A DNA stretch of 64,000 nucleotides from a virus, in IMG/VR virus record IMGVR_UViG_2912391263_000005, positions 1 to 64,000 of that record; one strand, written 5' to 3'. The position numbers and the translations under genes were made by a program. How positions within the stretch are numbered: the stretch's first letter is position 1; every line of letters starts with the position of its first letter. Under the pieces are notes generated by a model. It had not been told where the DNA came from. It was given only the letters and a program-made list of their open reading frames with translations, and did not search any database. Of the stretch, positions 16,595-56,852 are shown piece by piece.

Positions 16595-16906
16595 AAAATG
16601 GCGGTTTTTTGGCGGAATGATGGCGGTTTTTAGCCATTTATCAGTGATATTATGGTAGTGTCGAAAGATTAGGAAACAGGATCGACAAAATAAAATGTAA
16701 GGGAGGCAATCTCCCTCATCGTTTTAAACTTCTTCTTAGATAGACAGCAACTAATTATGAAGAAAAGGATGTGAATTCAACTCCTCCTAAATTCTTCATC
16801 GGTTGCTGTTTATTTTGATTAGACAGCAGCACTCACAAAACTAAACATGTTCTTGTCGTCTTTCAACTGCTGCTGTCTATTAATTTATGTATTGGAGGGA
16901 AGAAAA

Positions 16907-17059
16907 ATGAAATTATCAGTAGAAGGCACTCCAGAAGAAATACAAGAATTGCTCCAAGCTATTGGTAGTAGCAAGGAGCAAAAGGTAAGTGTTTCTAATT
17001 CAGATATTGACGGTATTTGCAATTGTTTAAACAGAGAAAAAATATCTAATCCTTACTAA
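16907..17059 (+). CDS. small hypothetical protein (50 aa)
   Basis: RBS TTGGAGGGAAG before ATG 16907. The upstream part of the table ORF 16847..17059 is probably leader. Confidence 0.3.
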   Translation: MKLSVEGTPEEIQELLQAIGSSKEQKVSVSNSDIDGICNCLNREKISNPY

Positions 17060-17343
17060 GAGAAAATATGTTCGTTAATGAATTTCCAATTTTCCTCTGT
17101 AGCTCTACCTTGATAATTTTTTTGCAGTTCACAGATGAATAAGGAATCGTTATTATCAAGTACTGTATTTAATTTTTCACACATTTGATTTGGATTCAAA
17201 TTAGTTTTAACTAACCAAAAAGATTTTTGTAGCTTTATATATGCCCCAAATTCTTTTATTATTTCAAATACTTTATCATACTTTTGCCCTGGGTTATTAA
17301 GATCATAACTAATCATGTAGGGTTTATACATGTTGTCTTGCAC
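17056..17343 (-). CDS. hypothetical protein with Cas2/VapD-like sequence pattern; reverse-oriented moron
   Basis: 95 aa. Pattern YDLnn...KVFEIIKEFGAYIKLQKSFWLVKT...DSLFICEL resembles the ferredoxin-like Cas2/VapD fold. Motif-level call only. Confidence 0.35.
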   Translation of the reverse strand: MQDNMYKPYMISYDLNNPGQKYDKVFEIIKEFGAYIKLQKSFWLVKTNLNPNQMCEKLNTVLDNNDSLFICELQKNYQGRATEENWKFINEHIFS

Positions 17344-47042: not shown

Positions 47043-47315
47043 ATGAGTGATGGTTTTGAACAAGTATCAATAATTAAAAATCAAGTTCGGGAGATTCTTA
47101 GAAAAAAAGGCTATTTGGTAGATAGTTATTTTGAAGGAGATTACGAAACATGGGTAGGTGTCTATGCTCGTCCAGAGAATAAACCTACCTATTTAGATCC
47201 TACGACGTCAGAAGATGCCTATTTACAAAATAGGTATCGAGTAGATGGTTTTAAGCAAGACTTTGCGGAGTGGTTTGAATGGGAAATTGAAAACGGAGAA
47301 GTAAAAGAAGAATAA
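47043..47315 (+). CDS. hypothetical protein, paralog of C-terminal domain of 56235..56852
   Basis: About 85% aa identity over ...QVREIL.KKGY.VDSYFE.DY.TWVGVYARPENKPTYLDP.TSEDAYLQN.YRVD.FKQDFAEWFEWEI. Confidence 0.55.
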   Translation: MSDGFEQVSIIKNQVREILRKKGYLVDSYFEGDYETWVGVYARPENKPTYLDPTTSEDAYLQNRYRVDGFKQDFAEWFEWEIENGEVKEE

Positions 47316-47644: not shown

Positions 47645-47790
47645 TTATAGTGGGAGGGTAAAATCATTGATGAAATGTGTTCAGATAAGAGCGCCAGATA
47701 AAAATAGAAGAGACAGTTCACGTCGTTATCACTTTTGGTAACGGCGTTTTGTTTTATTATATAAAATTCTCAGGAAAAGGAGGAATTCTT

Positions 47791-50700
47791 GTGTATGCAA
47801 AAACGAAAATGAATTGGTTGAAAGCACTCGCATTGGTGGCCTTTTCTCAATTCTGTTTCTTGGTGGGAACTGCTCAAGCACATGCAGAAGAAACGACGGC
47901 TACACAACCTACGGTGGAAGCCATTGCCCAAGTCGCTTCTGAAGTGACAGAAGTCCAACCAGCAGAAGCCGGGGTCCCAGCTGGTGAAGCCACTGTTGAA
48001 CAGGCCCCTGTGACAGAAGCGCCAACGGTCAATTCCAAAACGACTCTCGATCAGACGATTGGGGAAACACAACACCCAGGGAATAGTCCTGTTACTTCAC
48101 AACCAGTTGAAGAAACTGCCTCAATTACAATCCCTGCTTCAGAAACGTCCACTCCAGAAGGAGAAAAAGCTGCCGAAGCAACGCCTTCTGTGAAGCCAGA
48201 GTCTTCTGAGAAACAAGCGGAAGAAAAGCAACGAATAGAAGAAACAGTGGAACAAGCAGCGGCTACTGCTGACAAAGAAGGAAAAAATGAGGAAAACGTT
48301 GAAAAAACAATCTCTTCAACCGCAGCTAGTCAAAATCAACCAACGAAATCAAACAAAGAATCTACGGCTAGTATTGAAGATCAAAAGAAAAAAGAGCAGG
48401 ACATTCCAAAAACAGGTACACCTACACTGTTAGTAACAGTACCAACCAATCGTTCGGTTCGTGTTCGCCGTACAACCAATACAGCTGTTTTAGGTGGTCG
48501 AAAAATTAATTGGGGCGAAAATATTGGTGTTACTTCTAGTCCGAATAATCCAAACTTCACTTTAAATTACATGGTTCGTTTTGAGATTAATGGACAAGTG
48601 GCGTTTTGTATTGAGCCTGGTGTCGCAGCCGCAGAAGGACAAGTTTATACAGCTACTGCTTTGGAAAACTATTTGAAAAATTCAAATGTACGGAAAAAAA
48701 CAAGCTTGATCTCTTATTTAGGATATGTCACAAACAAAGACAAATCCGATGAACAATACATTGCGGCACAATTTATGATTTGGGAAGTTTTGGGCACAAA
48801 AATCCCAATTAAAAATATCCGTATTGAATATGATCGTAGAAAAGCAGAAATTCAACGTTTGCTTAATAATTTTGATGTAAGAGCTACCTTTCATAATCAA
48901 ACACATACGGTAAAAAGTGGCGAAACGTTAAAAGTAAAAAGTGGCAATGACTTTTTACAACGTGTAAAAGACATTAAAAAGCCAAAAGGTGTCAATGTAT
49001 CTATTCATGGGAATGAAGCATGGATCACAGTCACAAAAGAAGCACCAGAAAAGGCAAAAATTCACTTCAATCAGATTGAAGCATTAGGTGCGCCATTAGC
49101 GTATCGTCGTCCAGGTGCCCAAACAATTGGTGTATTGAATCCTTTTGAACCTGGTGACTCTGTTGTCAATTTGACCATTTTGAAACAAGGAAACATTCGT
49201 GTTTTTAAAGAAGATGTGGAAACCGATGTGAAAGCACAAGGGGCAGCTTCTTTAGAAAATGCGGTGTATGGCTTGTATCAAGTAGATGGGAAAAAGATCA
49301 AAGAAATCACGTTGAAAAATATTAACGGTAAAGTACAGGCAGAAATTAAAGATCTTGATCCTGGCAAATATGTTTTAAAAGAAATTAAAGCGCCGAAAGG
49401 CTATGTACTTTCTGATGAAACAATTGAAATTGTCGTTGAACCTGGAAAAACTGTCAATGCAACCGCAAAAGATCAAGTGATCAAAGGAACCATTGATTTA
49501 GTGAAAGTTGCTAATAAAGACTTAGTCGATTCAACCAATCCAGATAATAAACCAAAATTAGCTGGTATTGAAATCTCTTTGACGTCAAAAACAACTGGTC
49601 AAGTGGTGAAAACAGTTGTCACAGACAAAGATGGTTACGCTAGCTTTGGTAAAAATACTGTTGTCTTTGATACGTACATTCTTTCTGAAACCAAAGGAAA
49701 AGAAGGGTATAAACTATTTGAACCATTCGAAGTGACAATTTCTGAACAAGGGCAAACCTTCCATTATATTTTAGAAGACAAAGTAATCGAACAACGTCTT
49801 AAAGTGGTGAAAGTGGATCAAGAAACAGGAAAAGTGATTCCACTTGCTAATACAGAATTCAAGATTTTTGATACCTTAGCCAATCGTTATGTCACAATGG
49901 AGATTCCAAATGATACAGAAACGACGGATATCTTTAAAACCAATGAAAAAGGCTTTTTCTTAACTAACGGTACACTTACTTATGGAAAAGATCGTTATCG
50001 TTTGGAAGAAATCAAAGCGCCCGTAAATTACGTTTTGAATCAAAACCCATTGGTGTTCTCGATTACCAATGATACAGAACCAATCAAAGTGATCCATTTT
50101 GCGAACCGTCAAGCACGGAAAAACGTGAAATTGTTCAAGTATGAAGAATGGAACAAGAAGAAAACACCGCTTGCTGGTGTCACCTTTACTCTGTATAACC
50201 AAGCAGGGAAAGCTCTTGGTGAATATATCACCGATCAAAATGGTGAGATTTTAGTGAAAGGTCTAGTTGCCAATAACTATTACTTTATCGAAAATACACC
50301 ATTAGAAAGTTTCCAACCAAATACAGACAAACAAGCATTCACTATTACATTCAAACAAAATGCGCCAGATGATGGCGAAACGTTATTGGTTTCTGTACGT
50401 AACTACTTGATTCCGCCAAAACTAGAAACACAAGCGTCAAATAAAGCCGATGGTGAAAAAGTGGTTGATCCATTAGAAACGATCGTCATTAAAGACAGTG
50501 TTTCTTATACCAACCTGTTTGTCGGCAAAGAATACACCATTTCAGGAGTATTGATGAACAAGGCAACGAATGTGCCAATTTTACAAGATGGCAAAGAAAT
50601 CACAAGTACCTTGGCTTTTATTGCAGACAAAGCCAATGGCACAAAAGACCTTGAATTTGTGGTTAATGCTAGTGTTCTGAAAGGTCAAACGATTGTTGTT

Positions 50701-52060
50701 TTTGAAAAACTTTTCCGTGATGGCATTGAAGTTGCAGCACATGCGGATATCAACGATGAAGCCCAAAGTGTGAAAGTGAATAATCCAACCGTTCATACCA
50801 CGGCTGTCTTTGAAGACGGATTGACAGTCGCAGACCCAACAGGATTGTTTACCTTAAACGATACCGTTGAAATTACCGAGATTCTTCCAGGAAAAGCATA
50901 CTTGGTCAAAGGGATCTTAATGGATAAAGCAACCGGTGAACCCTTGCTTGTGCATGGAAATACGGTAGAAACGAGTGTTGGCTTTATTGCCAAAGCAGAA
51001 AATGAAACGGTGATCGTACCATTTACCTTTGATTTGACAGGTTTAAATGGTCGTGAAATCGTCGTGTTTGAAAGTCTTTTTAGAAATGATGAAGAACTAG
51101 CAAACCATAAAGACATCAACGACAAAGGGAACGAACCCAAGTGTACGTACAACGGCTACACATAAACCCACTGGCTTGAAAGAGGTTAATCCATTAACGA
51201 AAGTCACCATTACAGACGCTGTGAAATACCACGATTTGGTCGTTGGAAAAACATACACAGTCAACGGTGTTCTAATGGACAAAGTAACGGAAAAACCAGT
51301 GCTAGTAGATGGAAAAGAAGTCACAAGTACCTTAACGTTTGTGGCAGAAACAACGGATGGTACAGTCAATCTAGACTTTATTCTAGACGCACGTGCGTTG
51401 CGAGGCAAAGAAGTCGTGGTCTTTGAAGATCTGTTTAGAGAAGGCGTATTATTGGCTTCTCACGCAGATATTACCGACAATGACCAAACCATCAAAATCA
51501 GTAATCCAACCATTACGACGAAAGCGACGAATAAAAATGGCGGAAAAGAGATCTTGGCCTTGCCAAATCAAACTGTGCTTGAATGGGTCAAAGTAGACGG
51601 TCTTGCGATTGGTCAAATCTATCGCTTAATTGTTCAAGGCTACTTAACACCAGACGGCACACCATTTGAAGGCACTCATGCGGAAAAAGTCTTTGCGGCC
51701 GATAAAGAAATGATGGAATTCTTATTTGAATTCTTAGTGGACGGTCGCAATCTTGCAGGAAAAGGCTTGAGTTTTGCGGAATGGCTGCAAGCGAAAACGG
51801 AAGATGAGAAAGAAACGTTTGAAGAAGTGGCGAAACACAATGTAGATCTAACAAACAAAGATCAAACGGTTCAAATTGTGGAAGCGCCAAAACCACCGCA
51901 ACCAGTGAAACCAGAACAACGGGTTAAAGCAGCTACTGTTGTACCAATGTTGCCAAAAACAGGCGAACAAACAAGTAGTATACTTATGGTTCTTGGATTA
52001 GTAGTATTAGTCATTGTTTTAGGTATAACACTTTATAAAGTACGTAAAGCCAAAGATTAG
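47791..52060 (+). pseudogene. LPXTG (LPKTG) surface protein with Cna-B/SpaA-type repeat domains, disrupted by a +1/-1 frameshift near 51125-51140
   Basis: GTG start with RBS AAAGGAGG. Signal peptide. Repeated modules (...VFE.LFR....A.H.DIND..Q.V). ORF 47749..51165 stops 11 nt before ORF 51176..52060, which continues the same repeat in another frame and ends LPKTGEQ plus a TM and KRKAKD tail. Confidence 0.65.
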
Positions 52061-53023: not shown

Positions 53024-54895
53024 GTGCGCCAGGCATGGCAACTAACTAGGTGGTGAAAGTCCACTGCGAGGGGACACATCGACCAATCGCTAGAGAAACG
53101 CAAGGTGGCATCCGTGAGGATGTAGCTGAAGGAAGCGTGTATCAAACTCTTGGCTCGACGAACAGAAATCTGATACTAAGGCTCGAATAAGTGGATGAGG
53201 TTCCTATACAAACCAAAGTCCAAAAGATGTGCGTAAACTTATCGGGTAAATCAGGCGAGTAAAAGACGAAAGTTAGTTGTCTTACCCTGGGAGATCTCAC
53301 GGACGATTAAGGAGTCCCCTAATAAGAAAATCGGTCGAAAAAGGTTTATCGTGAGAAGTCAGCCGATGTCATAGTAGTGGAAATTTTCTTCCATGAAGGA
53401 CTGAACAATTTATAGTGTTTCTACACCATGAATGCACGAAAGATATATTTCTGAATGTGTTAATGATGAAAGTATGAGCGTATCTCAAAGGATAGTCAAA
53501 AGTGAAGTGTCTTTCGTTACATGAAAGGAAAAGGGAGAAGCGAGTATGGAACTTTTAGAAAAAATTTTGAGTAATCAAAACATGAACCAAGCTTACAAAC
53601 GTGTTTATCGTAATAAAGGAGCAAGCGGTGTGGATGGAATTTCAGTTGAGGAATTAAAGGCGTATCTTAGGGAACATAAAGAAGAACTTCGTTCTCAAAT
53701 CCGCCAACGTAAATACAATCCACAACCAACGTTACGAGTTGAAATTCCAAAAGGAAATGGCAAAACACGTCAATTAGGTATCCCCACAGTAGTGGATAGG
53801 GTCATCCAACAGGCGATTAGCCAAATCCTCACGACCGTTTTTGAAAAGCAATTTAGTACGTATAGTTATGGTTTTCGACCGAATCGTAGTTGTGAAATGG
53901 CGATTATCCAAACCCTAGACTTTATGAATAATGGCTATGATTGGCTAGTGGATATTGACTTAGAGCGGTTCTTTGATACTGTTCACCATGACAAGCTTAT
54001 GCGAATTGTCTCACACACGATAGAAGACGGGGATGTGATTTCTCTCATCCGCAAGTATCTAGTAAGTGGCGTCATGAAAAGTGGAAAATATGAAGACACA
54101 CCTATCGGTACCCCGCAAGGCGGTAATTTAAGTCCGCTATTGAGCAACATTATGCTAAATGAACTTGATAAAGAACTAGAATCAAGAGGACTACATTTTG
54201 TCCGCTATGCAGATGATAGTATCATTTTTGTCAAAAGCGAGAAGGCAGCACAGCGAGTGCTACAGTCTGTAACGACTTTTATCGAAAAGAAGTTAGGGCT
54301 GATCGTCAATGCAGAGAAAAGTAAAATAGGTCGTCCAAATAGCACAAAATTTTTAGGTTTCGGTTTTTACTTTGATAGTCATACAAAGAAATATCAGCCA
54401 ACGCCTCATAAGGACTTCGTTCAGAAATTTCAGCGCAAATTACGCCAATGGACTAAGAGGAACAGAAGTATTTCTCTTGATGAACGAATCATGAAACTTA
54501 AACAAGTCATTTATGGTTGGGTAAACTACTTTCGCAAAGCAAAAATGAAAGGAAAACTCAGAGAAATAGACGCAAAACTTCGGTCAAGAATCCGAGTCAT
54601 TATCTGGAAACAGTGGAAGAACGATAGAAAGAGAATTCGTTCCTTGGTTCAGTTAGGGATACCAGAAGAAGAAGCCAAAGGCTTAACGTATTGCAGAAAG
54701 AGCTATCGATTTATTGGATTATCAAAGGTAGTTCACAGAGCTCTATCAAATAAGCGACTAAAGCAAAGAGGCATTCCTTTTTCCGTAGATTATTATTTAA
54801 AAGTGCATACTGCAATATAAATTGAACCGCCGTATGCTGAACGGCTTGTGCGGTGGTGTGAGAGGGGTGCGAACCTATGCGTTCGGGCCTCTACT
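53024..54895 (+). mobile_element. group II intron, class C-like (3-prime boundary approximate)
   Basis: 5-prime GTGCGCC. RT/maturase ORF in domain IV. Domain-V-like hairpin AACCGCCGTATGC...GTGCGGTGG (CGC triad) at about 54825-54857. DVI-like hairpin follows. Inserted right after a terminator. Confidence 0.65.
53546..54820 (+). CDS. group II intron reverse transcriptase/maturase (no endonuclease domain)
   Basis: RT blocks (...GIPTVVDRVIQQA..., FRPNRSCEMA, YADD motif RYADDSIIF) and X/maturase domain. 424 aa, no C-terminal HNH. Confidence 0.85.
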   Translation: MELLEKILSNQNMNQAYKRVYRNKGASGVDGISVEELKAYLREHKEELRSQIRQRKYNPQPTLRVEIPKGNGKTRQLGIPTVVDRVIQQAISQILTTVFEKQFSTYSYGFRPNRSCEMAIIQTLDFMNNGYDWLVDIDLERFFDTVHHDKLMRIVSHTIEDGDVISLIRKYLVSGVMKSGKYEDTPIGTPQGGNLSPLLSNIMLNELDKELESRGLHFVRYADDSIIFVKSEKAAQRVLQSVTTFIEKKLGLIVNAEKSKIGRPNSTKFLGFGFYFDSHTKKYQPTPHKDFVQKFQRKLRQWTKRNRSISLDERIMKLKQVIYGWVNYFRKAKMKGKLREIDAKLRSRIRVIIWKQWKNDRKRIRSLVQLGIPEEEAKGLTYCRKSYRFIGLSKVVHRALSNKRLKQRGIPFSVDYYLKVHTAI

Positions 54896-54922
54896 CGATT
54901 AAGGTAGAAGGAAGGGGAGATT

Positions 54923-55150
54923 TTGAATTCAGATAAAACCAATCAAACACTTCGAGAGATTGTGGCTTGTTGTCAAAATATCCAACAATTGATTGAGTAT
55001 TTTGGAGACAATCCGACGATTTTTGCACAAACAAATGAGTATATGTGTGCGGTTATTGGGCAGTGTATGTTTTTAGGTGGATTATACTTTGAAGTGCAAA
55101 GAGTTAGTAATAGCTCTTTACATTTCAAAGTATTTTTTATGTGGAGGTAG
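54923..55150 (+). CDS. hypothetical protein (TTG start)
   Basis: RBS GGAAGGGGAG. Confidence 0.35.
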   Translation: MNSDKTNQTLREIVACCQNIQQLIEYFGDNPTIFAQTNEYMCAVIGQCMFLGGLYFEVQRVSNSSLHFKVFFMWR

Positions 55151-55153
55151 CCA

Positions 55154-55525
55154 ATGAGACTTTTTCAATGGGTTATTGAAACGGTAGCTGTTCAACGAAA
55201 TGGCGAAAATAAGATGCATGTGTTTCATATAACAACATTCGATAAATCTAAAAAGAATGCAATGGATATTGCCCGATTAAAGACGAAGCGATTGTTGAAG
55301 CGGAAAAACATTCCTTATTTACGAGTAACGATTTGTTGGATTCAGTTTATGAAAGTAGTGAGACGTACAAAGTACGAAGAATACAAACAGCTAGTCCGAT
55401 TGAATAAATCGAAAAAAGTCATTGCTCGTCTCCTGAATCTTCCTTTTTGGGAAGTGAATAAATTAGAACGACACTATCAAAAAGAACGACGTAGAAAATA
55501 TATACGTCAAGCCAAATTAAATTAG
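55154..55525 (+). CDS. hypothetical basic protein
   Basis: 123-aa ORF. Confidence 0.4.
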   Translation: MRLFQWVIETVAVQRNGENKMHVFHITTFDKSKKNAMDIARLKTKRLLKRKNIPYLRVTICWIQFMKVVRRTKYEEYKQLVRLNKSKKVIARLLNLPFWEVNKLERHYQKERRRKYIRQAKLN

Positions 55526-55634
55526 CATTCTTTTTGAGTCGATCATTTTGTTCAAAATAAAAGATACTTACTTCATTTATTCATAACATATAAATATAAG
55601 TTGCTAGGTCACAATCCAATAATATATATATAAT

Positions 55635-56103
55635 CCTAGCGGGAGTTAGCCTGATAAGCTACAGATAAGTACAGGTCTGTAGTGCTTCCGAATCAAAAAG
55701 GCACAGCGACACCTGGCATATGTTTAGTGCATATGTCGTCCGCTGCAGCGTCGGGAATCCAGGTCATGGAAACTCGGGAATCTGTGGGGAATGCTTACAC
55801 GGTCAACGCGCGGTAATGAGGGCGTAGTAACGGTCAGGGTAGGTGGATCGGCCAAATTCTTGTTTGGGGAAATGGAACCAGCAAGAAGATGGAGTTATTT
55901 CTACAGAATTGAGGGATCTTTTCTGAGGAAATAATCGGACAACGCGGGGCTAGTACGGTCTTTTCTAAGAATTTCTCTTAAAAAACGCGACGTCGAATGA
56001 TACGCTACCAGTGTGTCCATTTCCCCGGCTAAACAAGACTAAAAGTCAATTATTTAATAAATAGAATAAAAGGAAGGACTCTATTTTATTCTATTTACTT
56101 TTT
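55635..56103 (+). ncRNA. candidate structured ncRNA, copy B of the paralogous ORF-free element
   Basis: Homologous to 45973-46398. Terminal 12-bp hairpin aatagaataaaa/ttttattctatt (56060-56095) plus T-run, where copy A has a 6-bp version at the equivalent place. Confidence 0.45.
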
Positions 56104-56234
56104 AGGAAAGAGTGGATTATTGTTTTGAAACAAAAAAAGAACCAGTTTTTACTGATTCTTTTTAGAATAAGTAACCATTATAACAAAAGTTATAATGAAT
56201 AATACAAAATGTTTCAGTATCAGGAGGGAAGTTA

Positions 56235-56852
56235 ATGGAAGAACTTGAGCAAAAGAAAGTAATCCAACAATTAACAAAAGAAGCAGAGAATCGAACAAAT
56301 GAAATTTCGGACTTTATTGAAGAATGGGATAGAAGAACGAACAAAGCGTTAGAAATGGATAAAGAAGGAACGTTAACCATTCCTCATTTAAATGAGTTAT
56401 TTGAATTTGTTTCTTCTAAACTTGAAAAATATAAACGTGTAGAGAACCGAAGAGAACAATGCTATTCAAGGTATCGTGATCAATTAACCGAAGAACAGTT
56501 CGCAGTCTGGGAAAGATTCCGTTTTGCATTAAATAGTGTCCATATATGTCGTAAGAATTTTAATTCTTTTGTGGAACGTTTTAGTGATTACAAACCGTCT
56601 AATGTAGATAGTATTAGGAATCAAGTGCGAGAGATTCTAAAAAAGAAAGGCTATATCGTAGATAGTTATTTTGAAAGTGACTATGTGACATGGGTAGGTG
56701 TTTATGCTCGTCCAGAAAATAAACCAACCTACTTAGATCCTGCGACTTCAGAAGATGCTTATTTACAGAACAAATACCGAGTCGATGACTTTAAACAAGA
56801 TTTTGCAGAATGGTTTGAATGGGAAATTGCAAATGACATTGTTCAACCATAA
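56235..56852 (+). CDS. hypothetical protein, C-terminal domain paralogous to 47043..47315
   Basis: TATAAT at about 56193. RBS CAGGAGGG. Confidence 0.55.
   Translation: MEELEQKKVIQQLTKEAENRTNEISDFIEEWDRRTNKALEMDKEGTLTIPHLNELFEFVSSKLEKYKRVENRREQCYSRYRDQLTEEQFAVWERFRFALNSVHICRKNFNSFVERFSDYKPSNVDSIRNQVREILKKKGYIVDSYFESDYVTWVGVYARPENKPTYLDPATSEDAYLQNKYRVDDFKQDFAEWFEWEIANDIVQP

What the first reader, a model, noticed from the sequence alone, without database searches (positions are those of the whole stretch)
55635..56103. Paralogous ORF-free element, copy B (after group II intron and two small genes)
See copy A for the shared evidence.

Copy B has the stronger terminal hairpin. It is followed by a second hairpin plus T-run (about 56131-56160) and then a separate TATAAT promoter for gene 56235. 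The element therefore looks like an independent transcription unit rather than a leader.
Basis: seen in the sequence. Interest (0 to 1): 0.6.

Follow-up and report, generated by a model that had tools for sequence, protein, structure and literature searches.

The report
Structured RNA heading an Enterococcus conjugative element
Copy B is a real, previously uncatalogued ~400-nt folded non-coding RNA that sits behind a small regulator-like gene at the start of the transfer-gene operon of an Enterococcus conjugative element, and it most likely lets RNA polymerase read through the terminators that follow it.

Summary
Window 55636-56043 (+) is ORF-free and paralogous to 45966-46362 (74% identity). 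Two terminator-like hairpins follow it (56058-56097, 56134-56163).

It belongs to an RNA family with no Rfam match. I collected 14 distinct sequences. In the consensus fold 94% of pair cells are paired, against 40-47% in slid controls. Nineteen pairs show compensatory changes. Ten G.U pairs are conserved, which fixes the + strand. Distant homologues (L049, L050) keep a 180-nt core through compensatory changes.

Context: the RNA lies about 110 nt after a 123-aa gene. That gene is the first gene of an integrative conjugative element (ICE) with a MobT relaxase and an FtsK-like protein. The ICE inserts at many chromosomal sites and starts with a strong terminator hairpin (55085-55138).

Best explanation (confidence 0.45): a cis-acting processive antiterminator at the head of the operon, working like conAn2 or Tn916 canT. 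It is not detectably homologous to either, so I do not file it as a member.

Copy A is a degraded copy inside a rearranged ICE remnant. The promoter claimed for gene 56235 is only a -10 hexamer.

The parts
55085..55138 (+). Terminator-like hairpin plus U-run (T_L) at the extreme left end of the ICE; the element boundary is at about 55076 (GGTGGATTATACT).
   Evidence: Folds at -25.3 kcal/mol, z -6.9. Homology to all related loci starts at 55067-55082 and the upstream flanks all differ. The stem keeps pairing through compensatory differences in other loci and in L049 and L044.
55154..55525 (+). 123-aa gene, the first gene of the ICE. Predicted N-terminal beta-beta-alpha-beta unit plus a C-terminal sigma-region-4/LuxR-like HTH.
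55560..55609 (+). Conserved spacer block (GATACTTACTTCATTT...) and the possible 5' strand (GCUAGG, 55604-55609) of a stem with CCUAGC (55637-55642).
   Evidence: Alignment A5. L008 has GUUAGA/UCUAGC (compensatory). L005, L022 and L004 have wobble variants. The stem appears in the MFE folds. The block is absent from copy A.
55636..55851 (+). RNA copy B, 5' domain. A multi-helix junction is closed by 55651-55655/55847-55851 and 55710-55714/55841-55845. Its arms are 55715-55737, 55739-55790 (variable length) and 55793-55840. The conserved core is 55680-55858.
   Evidence: Consensus structure and helix coordinates. Pair statistics. Model R1 scores 190.8 bits here and 82 and 72 bits in the distant loci L049 and L050.
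55858..56043 (+). RNA copy B, 3' domain, closed by long-range helices 55858-55874/56018-56038. It contains the long hairpin 55893-55936 and the hairpin 55937-55960.
   Evidence: Present in all Enterococcus-type homologues. Its closing helix is lost in copy A. It is not recognisable in L049 or L050.
56058..56103 (+). First terminator-like hairpin and U-run after the RNA.
   Evidence: -12.2 kcal/mol, z -2.97. Near relatives (L026, L003 and most others) carry an extra canonical terminator, GGCUUUGU..ACAAAGGCUUUUUU, between the RNA and this hairpin. That terminator is deleted in the window.
56134..56170 (+). Second terminator-like hairpin. Its sequence is shared with 46493-46534 downstream of copy A.
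   Evidence: -10.0 kcal/mol, z -3.35. Shared motif found.
56235..56852 (+). First gene downstream of the RNA (205 aa, no family). Its C-terminal part is paralogous to the 90-aa ORF 47043-47315 downstream of copy A.
45966..46362 (+). RNA copy A, a degraded paralogue inside a rearranged ICE remnant.
   Evidence: nhmmer E 3.5e-95. R1 scores 119.7 bits against 190.8 for copy B. It lacks the 123-aa gene, hairpin H6 and the 3' strand of closing helix H13, and 14 pairs are broken. MFE z -0.05. It is preceded by a truncated adhesin 5' end, 45762-45910.
60722..60770 (+). Internal co-directional terminator within the ICE operon, after the 961-aa gene.
   Evidence: -20 kcal/mol hairpin plus T-run.
62814..62845 (+). 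Internal co-directional terminator just before the ICE adhesin gene. Sequence-related copies lie at 47721-47746 and 45727-45752.

Best explanation
Copy B is the intact copy of a conserved, two-domain structured RNA of about 400 nt. Together with the 123-aa HTH protein gene just upstream, it forms the head of the long co-directional transfer operon of a MobT-type integrative conjugative element (ICE) of Enterococcus.

I propose that the nascent RNA acts in cis on the RNA polymerase that made it, possibly helped by the 123-aa protein. This would make the polymerase resistant to the intrinsic terminators placed directly after the RNA and further down the operon. Transcripts that carry the RNA would then reach the adhesin, coupling-protein and relaxase genes, while stray transcripts would stop. 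That is processive antitermination, as shown for conAn2 of pLS20/pCF10-type plasmids and canT of Tn916.

Shown here: the RNA fold, its strand, its conservation, its fixed position, the terminators, and the ICE context. Inferred: that the RNA is transcribed as part of the operon, that it touches RNA polymerase, and that it suppresses termination.
For: 1. The structure is real.
- On 14 distinct sequences, 94.2% of pair cells are paired, against 40-47% when partners are slid.
- Nineteen pairs show changes on both sides, against 3-9 in the slid controls, and 0 of 500 shuffles reach the observed values.
- For the core including distant homologues: 96.4% paired against 33-49%, and 16 of 47 pairs compensatory against 2-6.

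2. It is on the + strand and fits RNA.
- 15.7% of paired cells are G.U and 10 pairs are conserved G.U.
- The + strand MFE is -138.5 kcal/mol against -115.0 for the - strand.
- No ORF is conserved.

3. Its position is fixed. In every locus the RNA lies about 100-130 nt after the 123-aa gene or its homologue, which is the first gene inside the element.

4. The element is an ICE.
- Downstream come LysM, an LPXTG/TQ adhesin, a 491-aa FtsK/SpoIIIE-like protein and a 418-aa Rep_trans/MobT relaxase, all co-directional.
- The element sits at different chromosomal sites, three of them in one genome.

5. Terminators follow the RNA in all sequence types.
- Two follow it in the window.
- A canonical terminator follows it in 10 of 14 sequences.
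- At least two hairpins, one a clear terminator, follow it in L049.
- More co-directional terminators lie inside the operon.

6. The RNA fold and the terminator hairpin coexist in the MFE and do not overlap. This argues against a simple either/or attenuator.

7. There is precedent.
- conAn is a small protein gene plus a 260-600-nt RNA at the start of Gram-positive conjugation operons, and its members share almost no sequence similarity (PMC8191782).
- canT is a 341-452-nt cis-acting RNA in Tn916, which also has a left-end insulator terminator (PMC11658703).
Against: No transcription or activity data exist for this RNA.

Neither partner is detectably homologous to the known systems.
- The 123-aa family against PrgR gives hhalign probability 0.1% and BLASTP E 0.17.
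- PF17362 is not hit.
- The nhmmer profile and model R1 find nothing in the pCF10 prgR-prgA region or the Tn925 canT region.

The RNA lies downstream of the strong left-end terminator T_L, so it cannot explain how transcription passes T_L. There is also no room for a promoter between T_L and the 123-aa gene.

A TAWAAT hexamer directly before the conserved CCTAGC in 5-7 of 10 sequence types, together with the terminators after the RNA, would equally define a stand-alone RNA gene.

The right end of the ICE, where a promoter or a canT-like element might lie, was never seen.
Confidence: 0.45

Rival explanations
1. A stand-alone, trans-acting or protein-binding RNA with its own promoter and terminators. 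Examples would be a scaffold or sponge for the 123-aa protein or for RNA polymerase, or a regulator of ICE excision or transfer.
For: A -10-like TAWAAT ends 1 nt before the conserved CCTAGC in 5-7 of 10 sequence types. One or two terminators follow the RNA directly. The fold is large and ornate, with two domains, as in other stand-alone bacterial RNAs. Strong sequence conservation of loops and junctions (GGUCAAC, GUAGUAAC, ACAGCGACAC) suggests a bound partner.
Against: No acceptable -35 accompanies the hexamer, and it is missing in L008, L022 and copy A. The covarying stem GCUAGG:CCUAGC would need a start further upstream. The strict position at the head of a terminator-studded operon is better explained by a cis role. 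The promoter proposed for the next gene is only a -10 hexamer.
Confidence: 0.22
2. A signal-responsive leader, meaning an attenuator or riboswitch-like sensor. Its fold would bind a ligand, a tRNA or the 123-aa protein and decide whether the terminator directly after it forms, so gating the transfer operon.
For: It is a structured RNA immediately upstream of a terminator and upstream of the operon genes. An adjacent DNA/RNA-binding-like protein could be the effector. pLS20 has a leader-based attenuation step in its conjugation operon (abstract of PMC13401043).
Against: No competing antiterminator pairing was found. The 3' closing helices end 10-20 nt before the terminator, and both the fold and the terminator form together in the MFE. 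In the window the canonical terminator is deleted while the RNA is intact. The size and two-domain build far exceed known ligand sensors. It would not deal with the further terminators inside the operon.
Confidence: 0.15
3. A single-strand origin (sso): the folded + strand DNA, not RNA, would be the active form, priming complementary-strand synthesis after rolling-circle replication or transfer of the ICE.
For: MobT/Rep_trans ICEs replicate by rolling circle and carry sso elements (PMC11658703 cites these for ICEBs1 and Tn916). The + strand also folds significantly with DNA parameters (z -3.56). The structure is strand-specific.
Against: Ten conserved G.U pairs and many G-C to G-U changes are typical of RNA and are weak in DNA. 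Terminators consistently follow the element. Its adjacency to the 123-aa gene at the operon head is fixed even in distant ICEs. At about 400 nt in two domains it is larger than sso elements as I recall them (my own knowledge). No sso reference sequences were available to compare.
Confidence: 0.08

Closest known systems
conAn bipartite processive antitermination system (ConAn1 protein plus conAn2 RNA; pLS20, pCF10 prgR/prgS region, pAD1 traE region; Miguel-Arribas et al. 2021, PMC8191782)
   Same: A small protein gene is followed directly by a 260-600-nt ORF-free RNA region at the start of a long conjugation operon of a Gram-positive element, Enterococcus included. The operon holds several intrinsic terminators. 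The RNA is on the same strand as the operon. Known members are also nearly unrelated to each other in sequence.
   Different: The 123-aa protein shows no detectable homology to PrgR or to PF17362. The RNA shows no similarity to the pCF10 region by profile or covariance model. The host element is a chromosomal MobT ICE, not a plasmid. The protein has a sigma-region-4/LuxR-like HTH. No activity has been tested.
canT antiterminator RNA and T1 insulator terminator of Tn916 (PMC11658703)
   Same: The element class is the same: an ICE with an FtsK-like coupling protein and a MobT relaxase that inserts at many sites. A strong terminator sits at the extreme left end in front of the transfer genes. The RNA is of similar size (341-452 nt for canT). 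Further terminators lie inside the operon.
   Different: There is no sequence or structure similarity to the canT region of Tn925. canT lies near the right end and comes to lie upstream of T1 only after excision, whereas this RNA lies downstream of the left-end terminator. canT works without an element protein, whereas here a dedicated small gene is always adjacent. Orf7 and Orf8 of Tn916 are not detectably related to the 123-aa protein.
Large structured bacterial RNAs of mobile elements and prophages in Rfam (ROOL, GOLLD, HEARO, raiA and others)
   Same: It is a long, multi-helix, strongly covarying non-coding RNA carried by a mobile element of Firmicutes.
   Different: No Rfam 15 family matches copy B, copy A or the homologues, even at E up to 1-10. 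The head-of-operon position and the following terminators are not features of those families (my own knowledge).

Membership tests
conAn (ConAn1 + conAn2) | [quoted passage not shown] | tested here: met
   The 123-aa gene and RNA are the first features inside the element. FtsK-like and MobT relaxase genes follow co-directionally.
conAn (ConAn1 + conAn2) | Small protein gene immediately followed by a 260-600-nt non-coding region that acts as RNA | tested here: inconclusive
   The layout is met: 123-aa gene, about 110 nt, then a structured ORF-free RNA of about 400 nt. Whether it acts as RNA in antitermination was not testable.
conAn (ConAn1 + conAn2) | Protein homologous to ConAn1 proteins (PrgR, TraE, p28; Pfam PF17362) | tested here: not met
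   BLASTP against PrgR gives E 0.17. hhalign of the family profile against PrgR gives probability 0.1%. PF17362 is not hit in 7 family members at E up to 5, although PrgR itself also has no Pfam hit. Only PrgR was available as a reference. The PrgR structure model was unusable (pLDDT 39).
conAn (ConAn1 + conAn2) | Several intrinsic terminators inside the operon that must be bypassed | tested here: met
   Hairpin plus U-run sites at 56058-56103, 56134-56170, 60722-60770 and 62814-62845, and at L045 20564-20598.
conAn (ConAn1 + conAn2) | Read-through of heterologous terminators in a reporter assay, with processivity dependent on the protein | not testable with these tools
   Needs experiments.
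canT / T1 system of Tn916-like ICEs | Sequence or structure homology to the 452-nt canT region | tested here: not met
   No nhmmer hit and no R1 hit at the canT position of Tn925 in pCF10 (L048 about 16745-17204, minus strand).
canT / T1 system of Tn916-like ICEs | Insulator terminator at the left end of the element, upstream of the transfer genes | tested here: met
   T_L at 55085-55138 folds at -25.3 kcal/mol (z -6.9). It is conserved with compensatory changes in all loci, including L049 and L044. Terminator function itself was not tested.
canT / T1 system of Tn916-like ICEs | Antiterminator placed so that, after excision, it lies between the driving promoter and the left-end terminator | tested here: not met
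   The RNA lies about 500 nt downstream of T_L on the same strand. The right end of the ICE was not available.
Any Rfam 15 family | Covariance-model match at or near the gathering score | tested here: not met
   The window at gathering threshold gave only group II intron and tRNA hits. Window 45-57 kb at E up to 10 and the L049 and L008 regions at E up to 1 gave only chance-level hits.
Terminator/antiterminator attenuator (riboswitch-like leader) | Mutually exclusive pairing between the sensor fold and the terminator stem | tested here: not met
   The fold and the terminal hairpin coexist in the MFE. The closing helices end before the terminator with no shared nucleotides. Alternative pairings were checked by eye only.
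Single-strand origin (sso) of rolling-circle elements | Strand-specific folded ssDNA with homology to known sso types | tested here: inconclusive
   The DNA-parameter fold is significant (z -3.56) and the strand is specific. Conserved G.U pairs favour RNA. No sso reference sequences were available for comparison.

The most novel reading that the evidence does not exclude
The RNA and the 123-aa sigma-region-4-like protein form a new kind of ribonucleoprotein switch for ICE transfer, rather than one more antiterminator. For example, a large RNA could dock on RNA polymerase with a sigma-domain mimic, or it could have catalytic or sensing activity, and so decide when an integrated element commits to transfer. 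The invariant junction and loop sequences (ACAGCGACAC, GGUCAAC, GUAGUAAC) would then mark a binding or active site conserved across distantly related ICEs.
Probability: 0.15. Interest if true: 0.85.

Novelty: new variant of a known kind. Interest (0 to 1): 0.6.

Why it matters
Large, well-folded bacterial RNAs with strong covariation are rare, and this one is in no RNA family library.

It sits at the control point of a family of conjugative elements that move between Enterococcus species. Those species are clinically important and trade resistance and adhesion genes.

If it is a processive antiterminator, it would be a third, sequence-unrelated class after conAn2 and canT. It would be the first of these with a comparative structure model, because the published ones rest on single-sequence folds. 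That model gives precise helices and invariant loops to mutate, which makes the open question of how such RNAs modify RNA polymerase more tractable.

It would also extend the 'insulating terminator plus antiterminator' logic of Tn916 to a different arrangement, in which the RNA lies behind the insulator.

Tried and rejected
- Rfam at gathering and permissive thresholds on the window and on homologues: nothing.
- blastn of copy B against the plasmid and phage collections: no match.
- Two DNA patterns in viral contigs: no match, so this is not a phage element.
- Coding potential: rejected, because the ORFs are not conserved.
- Part of the neighbouring group II intron: rejected. The intron ends at 54899 (Rfam domain V/VI hit) and the RNA is conserved in loci without any intron.
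- Homology of the 123-aa protein to PrgR, or to Tn916 Orf7 and Orf8: none detectable.
- Structure prediction of PrgR for a fold comparison: failed (pLDDT 39).
- Foldseek against AFDB: library unavailable.
- Exact-protein look-ups for the two small genes after adhesin A: nothing on record.
- My second terminator-finding script timed out. I used the first script, the built-in scan and direct folds instead.
- MAFFT misaligned the distant homologues L049 and L050. I replaced those alignments with a covariance-model alignment.
- E. faecalis plasmid relatives (L001, L044): they carry a 28-31%-identical gene with the same left-end hairpin, but an IS1182 cuts the region. No RNA homologue is detectable there by nhmmer or R1, and its fold is not significant.
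- A weak R1 hit inside Tn925 mobT, on the strand opposite the gene (11.5 bits, E 0.16): treated as chance.

Full report
**The observation**

Window 55635-56103 is ORF-free in any conserved sense. It has a paralogue at 45968-46316 (blastn 74% identity over 365 nt, E 9e-60).

An nhmmer profile and a covariance model built later find exactly these two copies in the 64-kb window.

The terminal hairpin 56058-56097 folds at -12.2 kcal/mol (z -2.97) and ACUUUUU follows it. The second hairpin 56134-56163 folds at -10.0 kcal/mol (z -3.35). Both are real. The equivalents after copy A are weak.

The TATAAT at 56191-56196 has no usable -35 and the promoter scan did not report it.

No Rfam 15 family matches either copy, even at E up to 10. 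Homologues from other loci also give no match.

**Where it sits**

- The first 39 kb of the window is a prophage, followed by a tRNA and IS3 fragments.
- From about 45.6 kb the genes are those of an Enterococcus mobile element. They include a 1138 + 294-aa thioester/TQ/SpaA LPXTG adhesin, a complete group II intron (53108-54899), and a 123-aa gene (55154-55525) that ends 110 nt before copy B.
- The 123-aa protein belongs to a small family: 13 clusters at 90% identity, the named ones all Enterococcus, and 15 representatives among 1.84 billion proteins.

I fetched about 20 loci that encode it. In every locus the gene is the first gene of an inserted element. Homology to the window begins at window 55067-55082. 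Upstream of that point lie unrelated housekeeping genes, with three different sites within one genome.

Downstream come 0.7-1.9 kb without genes, then small genes, a LysM protein and a giant TQ/SpaA adhesin.

Walking further from the window's own LysM gene gives three loci collinear with the window. After the adhesin they carry three small genes, a 491-aa FtsK/SpoIIIE-like protein and a 418-aa Rep_trans protein. The Rep_trans protein matches the MobT relaxase model over its full length (E 4e-43, below the curated cut-off).

The element is therefore an integrative conjugative element of the Tn916/ICESt3 kind. The best match of the window's element is in E. gallinarum NBRC 100675 (98% protein identity).

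**The left end**

The first ~55 nt inside the element form a long hairpin followed by a U-run (55085-55138; -25.3 kcal/mol, z -6.9). The ribosome-binding site of the 123-aa gene follows immediately.

The stem differs between loci but keeps pairing. It is also present in the distant relatives L049 and L044.

This matches the T1 'insulator' terminator described at the left end of Tn916 and its relatives (PMC11658703).

**The RNA family**

blastn finds a homologue of copy B 100-130 nt after the 123-aa gene in all Enterococcus loci, at 70-96% identity. One DNA-pattern scan of metagenomes added a copy-B-like sequence (L026) and a copy-A-like sequence (L040).

Fourteen distinct sequences were aligned (A6). 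The RNAalifold consensus has 126 pairs in two domains:

- The 5' domain (55636-55851) is a multi-helix junction closed by long-range helices.
- The 3' domain (55858-56043) is closed by 55858-55874 pairing with 56018-56038.

Pair statistics on A6:

| Measure | Consensus structure | Partners slid by 1-3 columns |
|---|---|---|
| Pair cells that pair | 94.2% | 40-47% |
| Pairs with changes on both sides | 19 | 3-9 |
| Covariation score | 0.199 | 0.064-0.085 |

No shuffle out of 500 reaches the observed values.

One arm, inside helix 55739-55790, carries about 45 extra nucleotides in one subgroup. Another arm carries about 23 extra nucleotides in L010. Both behave like variable peripheral stems.

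Strand and coding evidence:

- 15.7% of paired cells are G.U and ten pairs are conserved G.U.
- The + strand folds at -138.5 kcal/mol against -115.0 for the complement.
- The two ORFs in copy B are destroyed by frameshifts and stops in the homologues.

**Distant homologues**

A 46%-identical relative of the 123-aa protein (P0014, P0032) lies in two loci with the same design but a compact ICE without the adhesin module. The order there is left-end hairpin, 139-aa gene, 740 nt without genes, small genes, FtsK-like protein and Rep_trans relaxase.

nhmmer finds the 5' core of the RNA there (E about 1e-12). A covariance model of the core (R1, 187 positions, 47 pairs) scores 82 and 72 bits over its full length.

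Three helices keep pairing through complete changes:

- CACCU/AGGUG becomes CACUC/GAGUG.
- CAUAUG/CAUAUG becomes GAAUUC/GAAUUC.
- CUGCA/UGUGG becomes CUAC/GUAG.

The variable arm shrinks to a short loop.

Pair statistics on the model-guided alignment A14:

| Measure | Consensus structure | Slid partners |
|---|---|---|
| Pair cells that pair | 96.4% | 33-49% |
| Pairs with changes on both sides | 16 of 47 | 2-6 |

That alignment is fitted to the structure and therefore leans towards it.

The RNA core (about 65-70% identical by my reading of the alignment) is better kept than the neighbouring protein (46%). In these loci too, hairpins follow the RNA before the next gene, one of them a clear terminator.

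**Copy A against copy B**

The 126 consensus pairs divide as follows:

| Class | Pairs |
|---|---|
| Identical in both copies | 53 |
| Changed on one side, still paired | 23 |
| Compensatory | 4 |
| Broken in A only | 14 |
| Broken in B only | 5 |
| Broken in both | 3 |
| Gap, mostly deletions in A | 24 |

- Copy A lacks the hairpin 55715-55737 and the 3' strand of the closing helix of the 3' domain.
- Copy A folds no better than shuffled sequence (z -0.05). Copy B has z -3.66.
- Copy A scores 120 bits with R1 against 191 for copy B.
- Copy A has no 123-aa gene and no left end.
- A truncated adhesin 5' end (45762-45910) precedes copy A. In normal elements that segment lies just upstream of the adhesin gene.
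- The same rearranged unit occurs at 96-99% identity next to lepA in a metagenome contig.

Copy A is best read as a decaying copy in an ICE remnant. The three collinear genomes (L045-L047) show the downstream part of this arrangement: an adhesin gene and two small genes, the group II intron, then the full ICE.

**Mechanism**

Two experimentally established systems have this anatomy.

- conAn is a small protein gene (ConAn1; PrgR in pCF10, TraE in pAD1) followed by a 260-600-nt RNA (conAn2) at the start of Gram-positive conjugation operons. The RNA makes polymerase ignore terminators and the protein gives processivity. Members share only 13-33% protein identity and 30-40% RNA identity (PMC8191782).
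- canT of Tn916 is a 341-452-nt cis-acting, orientation-specific RNA. It lets transcripts pass the left-end terminator T1 and internal terminators (PMC11658703).

The present RNA shares several features with them:

- the size;
- the strand;
- the head-of-operon position;
- the adjacent small gene;
- the terminators immediately after it;
- further co-directional terminators inside the operon at 60722-60770, 62814-62845 and L045 20564-20598.

The fold and the following terminator do not overlap and form together in the MFE. This speaks against a simple either/or attenuator. I therefore favour cis-acting processive antitermination, at confidence 0.45.

**What does not fit, and membership**

- The 123-aa family is not detectably related to PrgR, to PF17362, or to Tn916 Orf7 and Orf8.
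- The RNA has no profile or covariance-model match in the pCF10 prgR-prgA region or in the canT region of Tn925.
- Unlike canT, the RNA lies downstream of the left-end terminator. It cannot explain how that terminator is passed, and there is no room for a promoter between that terminator and the 123-aa gene.
- Where transcription starts is unknown. A TAWAAT hexamer abuts the conserved CCTAGC in 5-7 of 10 sequence types. Against a start there, the stem GCUAGG (55604-55609) with CCUAGC (55637-55642) has one compensatory and three wobble variants and would need an earlier start.

It works like conAn or canT in layout, but I do not file it as a member of either.

**Rivals**

| Reading | Confidence | Main point |
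|---|---|---|
| Stand-alone RNA | 0.22 | Remains possible |
| Signal-responsive leader | 0.15 | No competing antiterminator pairing seen |
| Single-strand origin acting as folded DNA | 0.08 | See below |

The single-strand origin is not excluded by energy, because the DNA-parameter fold has z -3.56. The conserved G.U pairs, the terminators and the fixed synteny argue against it.

**Verdict**

The finding is real. It is a new structured RNA family (no Rfam match, and none of my three paper searches found a description) at the control point of an Enterococcus ICE family. It is most likely a new, sequence-unrelated variant of the processive antitermination RNAs of Gram-positive conjugative elements. 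Interest 0.6.

Noticed in passing
window 55076-55138: The exact left boundary of a multi-site-inserting ICE. Its first ~55 nt are a very stable terminator-like hairpin (-25 kcal/mol) that covaries between loci, like the T1 insulator of Tn916.
   Followed up: yes
window 53108-54899; L006 6988-7920: A complete group II intron (RT/maturase 53546-54820) ends about 180 nt before the ICE left end. In another genome (L006) the same ICE type is inserted inside a copy of this intron, cutting its RT gene. Chance or a preferred neighbourhood is undecided.
   Followed up: partly
window 47749-52060: Adhesin A is split into 1138-aa and 294-aa ORFs, whereas collinear genomes have a single 1422-1427-aa gene (L045, L046). 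This is probably a frameshift or stop, or a sequencing error.
   Followed up: partly
window 45727-45910, 47721-47746, 62814-62839: A related terminator hairpin (CGTCGWTA...) occurs three times, each just upstream of an adhesin start. The first is followed only by a truncated adhesin 5' end (18-codon ORF with a signal-peptide-like sequence) fused to the region upstream of RNA copy A.
   Followed up: partly
window 46331-46542; L005 8942-9110; L010 9056-9269: A second conserved non-coding segment follows the RNA in copy A and in several other elements. After copy B only its terminal terminator motif remains (56120-56161).
   Followed up: no
window 55560-55576: A conserved block GATACTTACYTCATTT lies between the 123-aa gene and the RNA. 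It is present in all full elements and absent from copy A. Its function is unknown.
   Followed up: no
window 56042-56058 versus L026 1619-1683: Relative to its closest relative, the window has lost about 64 nt that contain the canonical terminator directly after the RNA. The next hairpin is therefore the first terminator here.
   Followed up: partly
L044 19920-20860 (E. faecalis plasmid LR962621.1); L001: Enterococcus faecalis plasmids carry a 28-31%-identical relative of the 123-aa gene with the same left-end hairpin. The region after it is cut by an IS1182 transposase gene. Its short 5' stretch resembles L049 (GATTTCAATAACCAAACTTT, ACCCTTTATCAAA), but no RNA core is detectable.
   Followed up: partly
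window 1-41976: A prophage occupies about 1-39 kb (integrase at 1-1146 on the minus strand by position; large terminase-sized, portal-sized and tape-measure-sized ORFs judged by size and order only, without a family search). It is followed by a tRNA (39476-39549) and IS3-family fragments in opposite orientations (40552-41388 +, 41473-41976 -).
   Followed up: no
window 56235-56852 and 47043-47315: The C-terminal part of the 205-aa protein after copy B is paralogous to the 90-aa ORF after copy A (shared ...QVREILRKKGY.VDSYFE.DY.TWVG...). The duplication therefore covers more than the RNA.
   Followed up: partly
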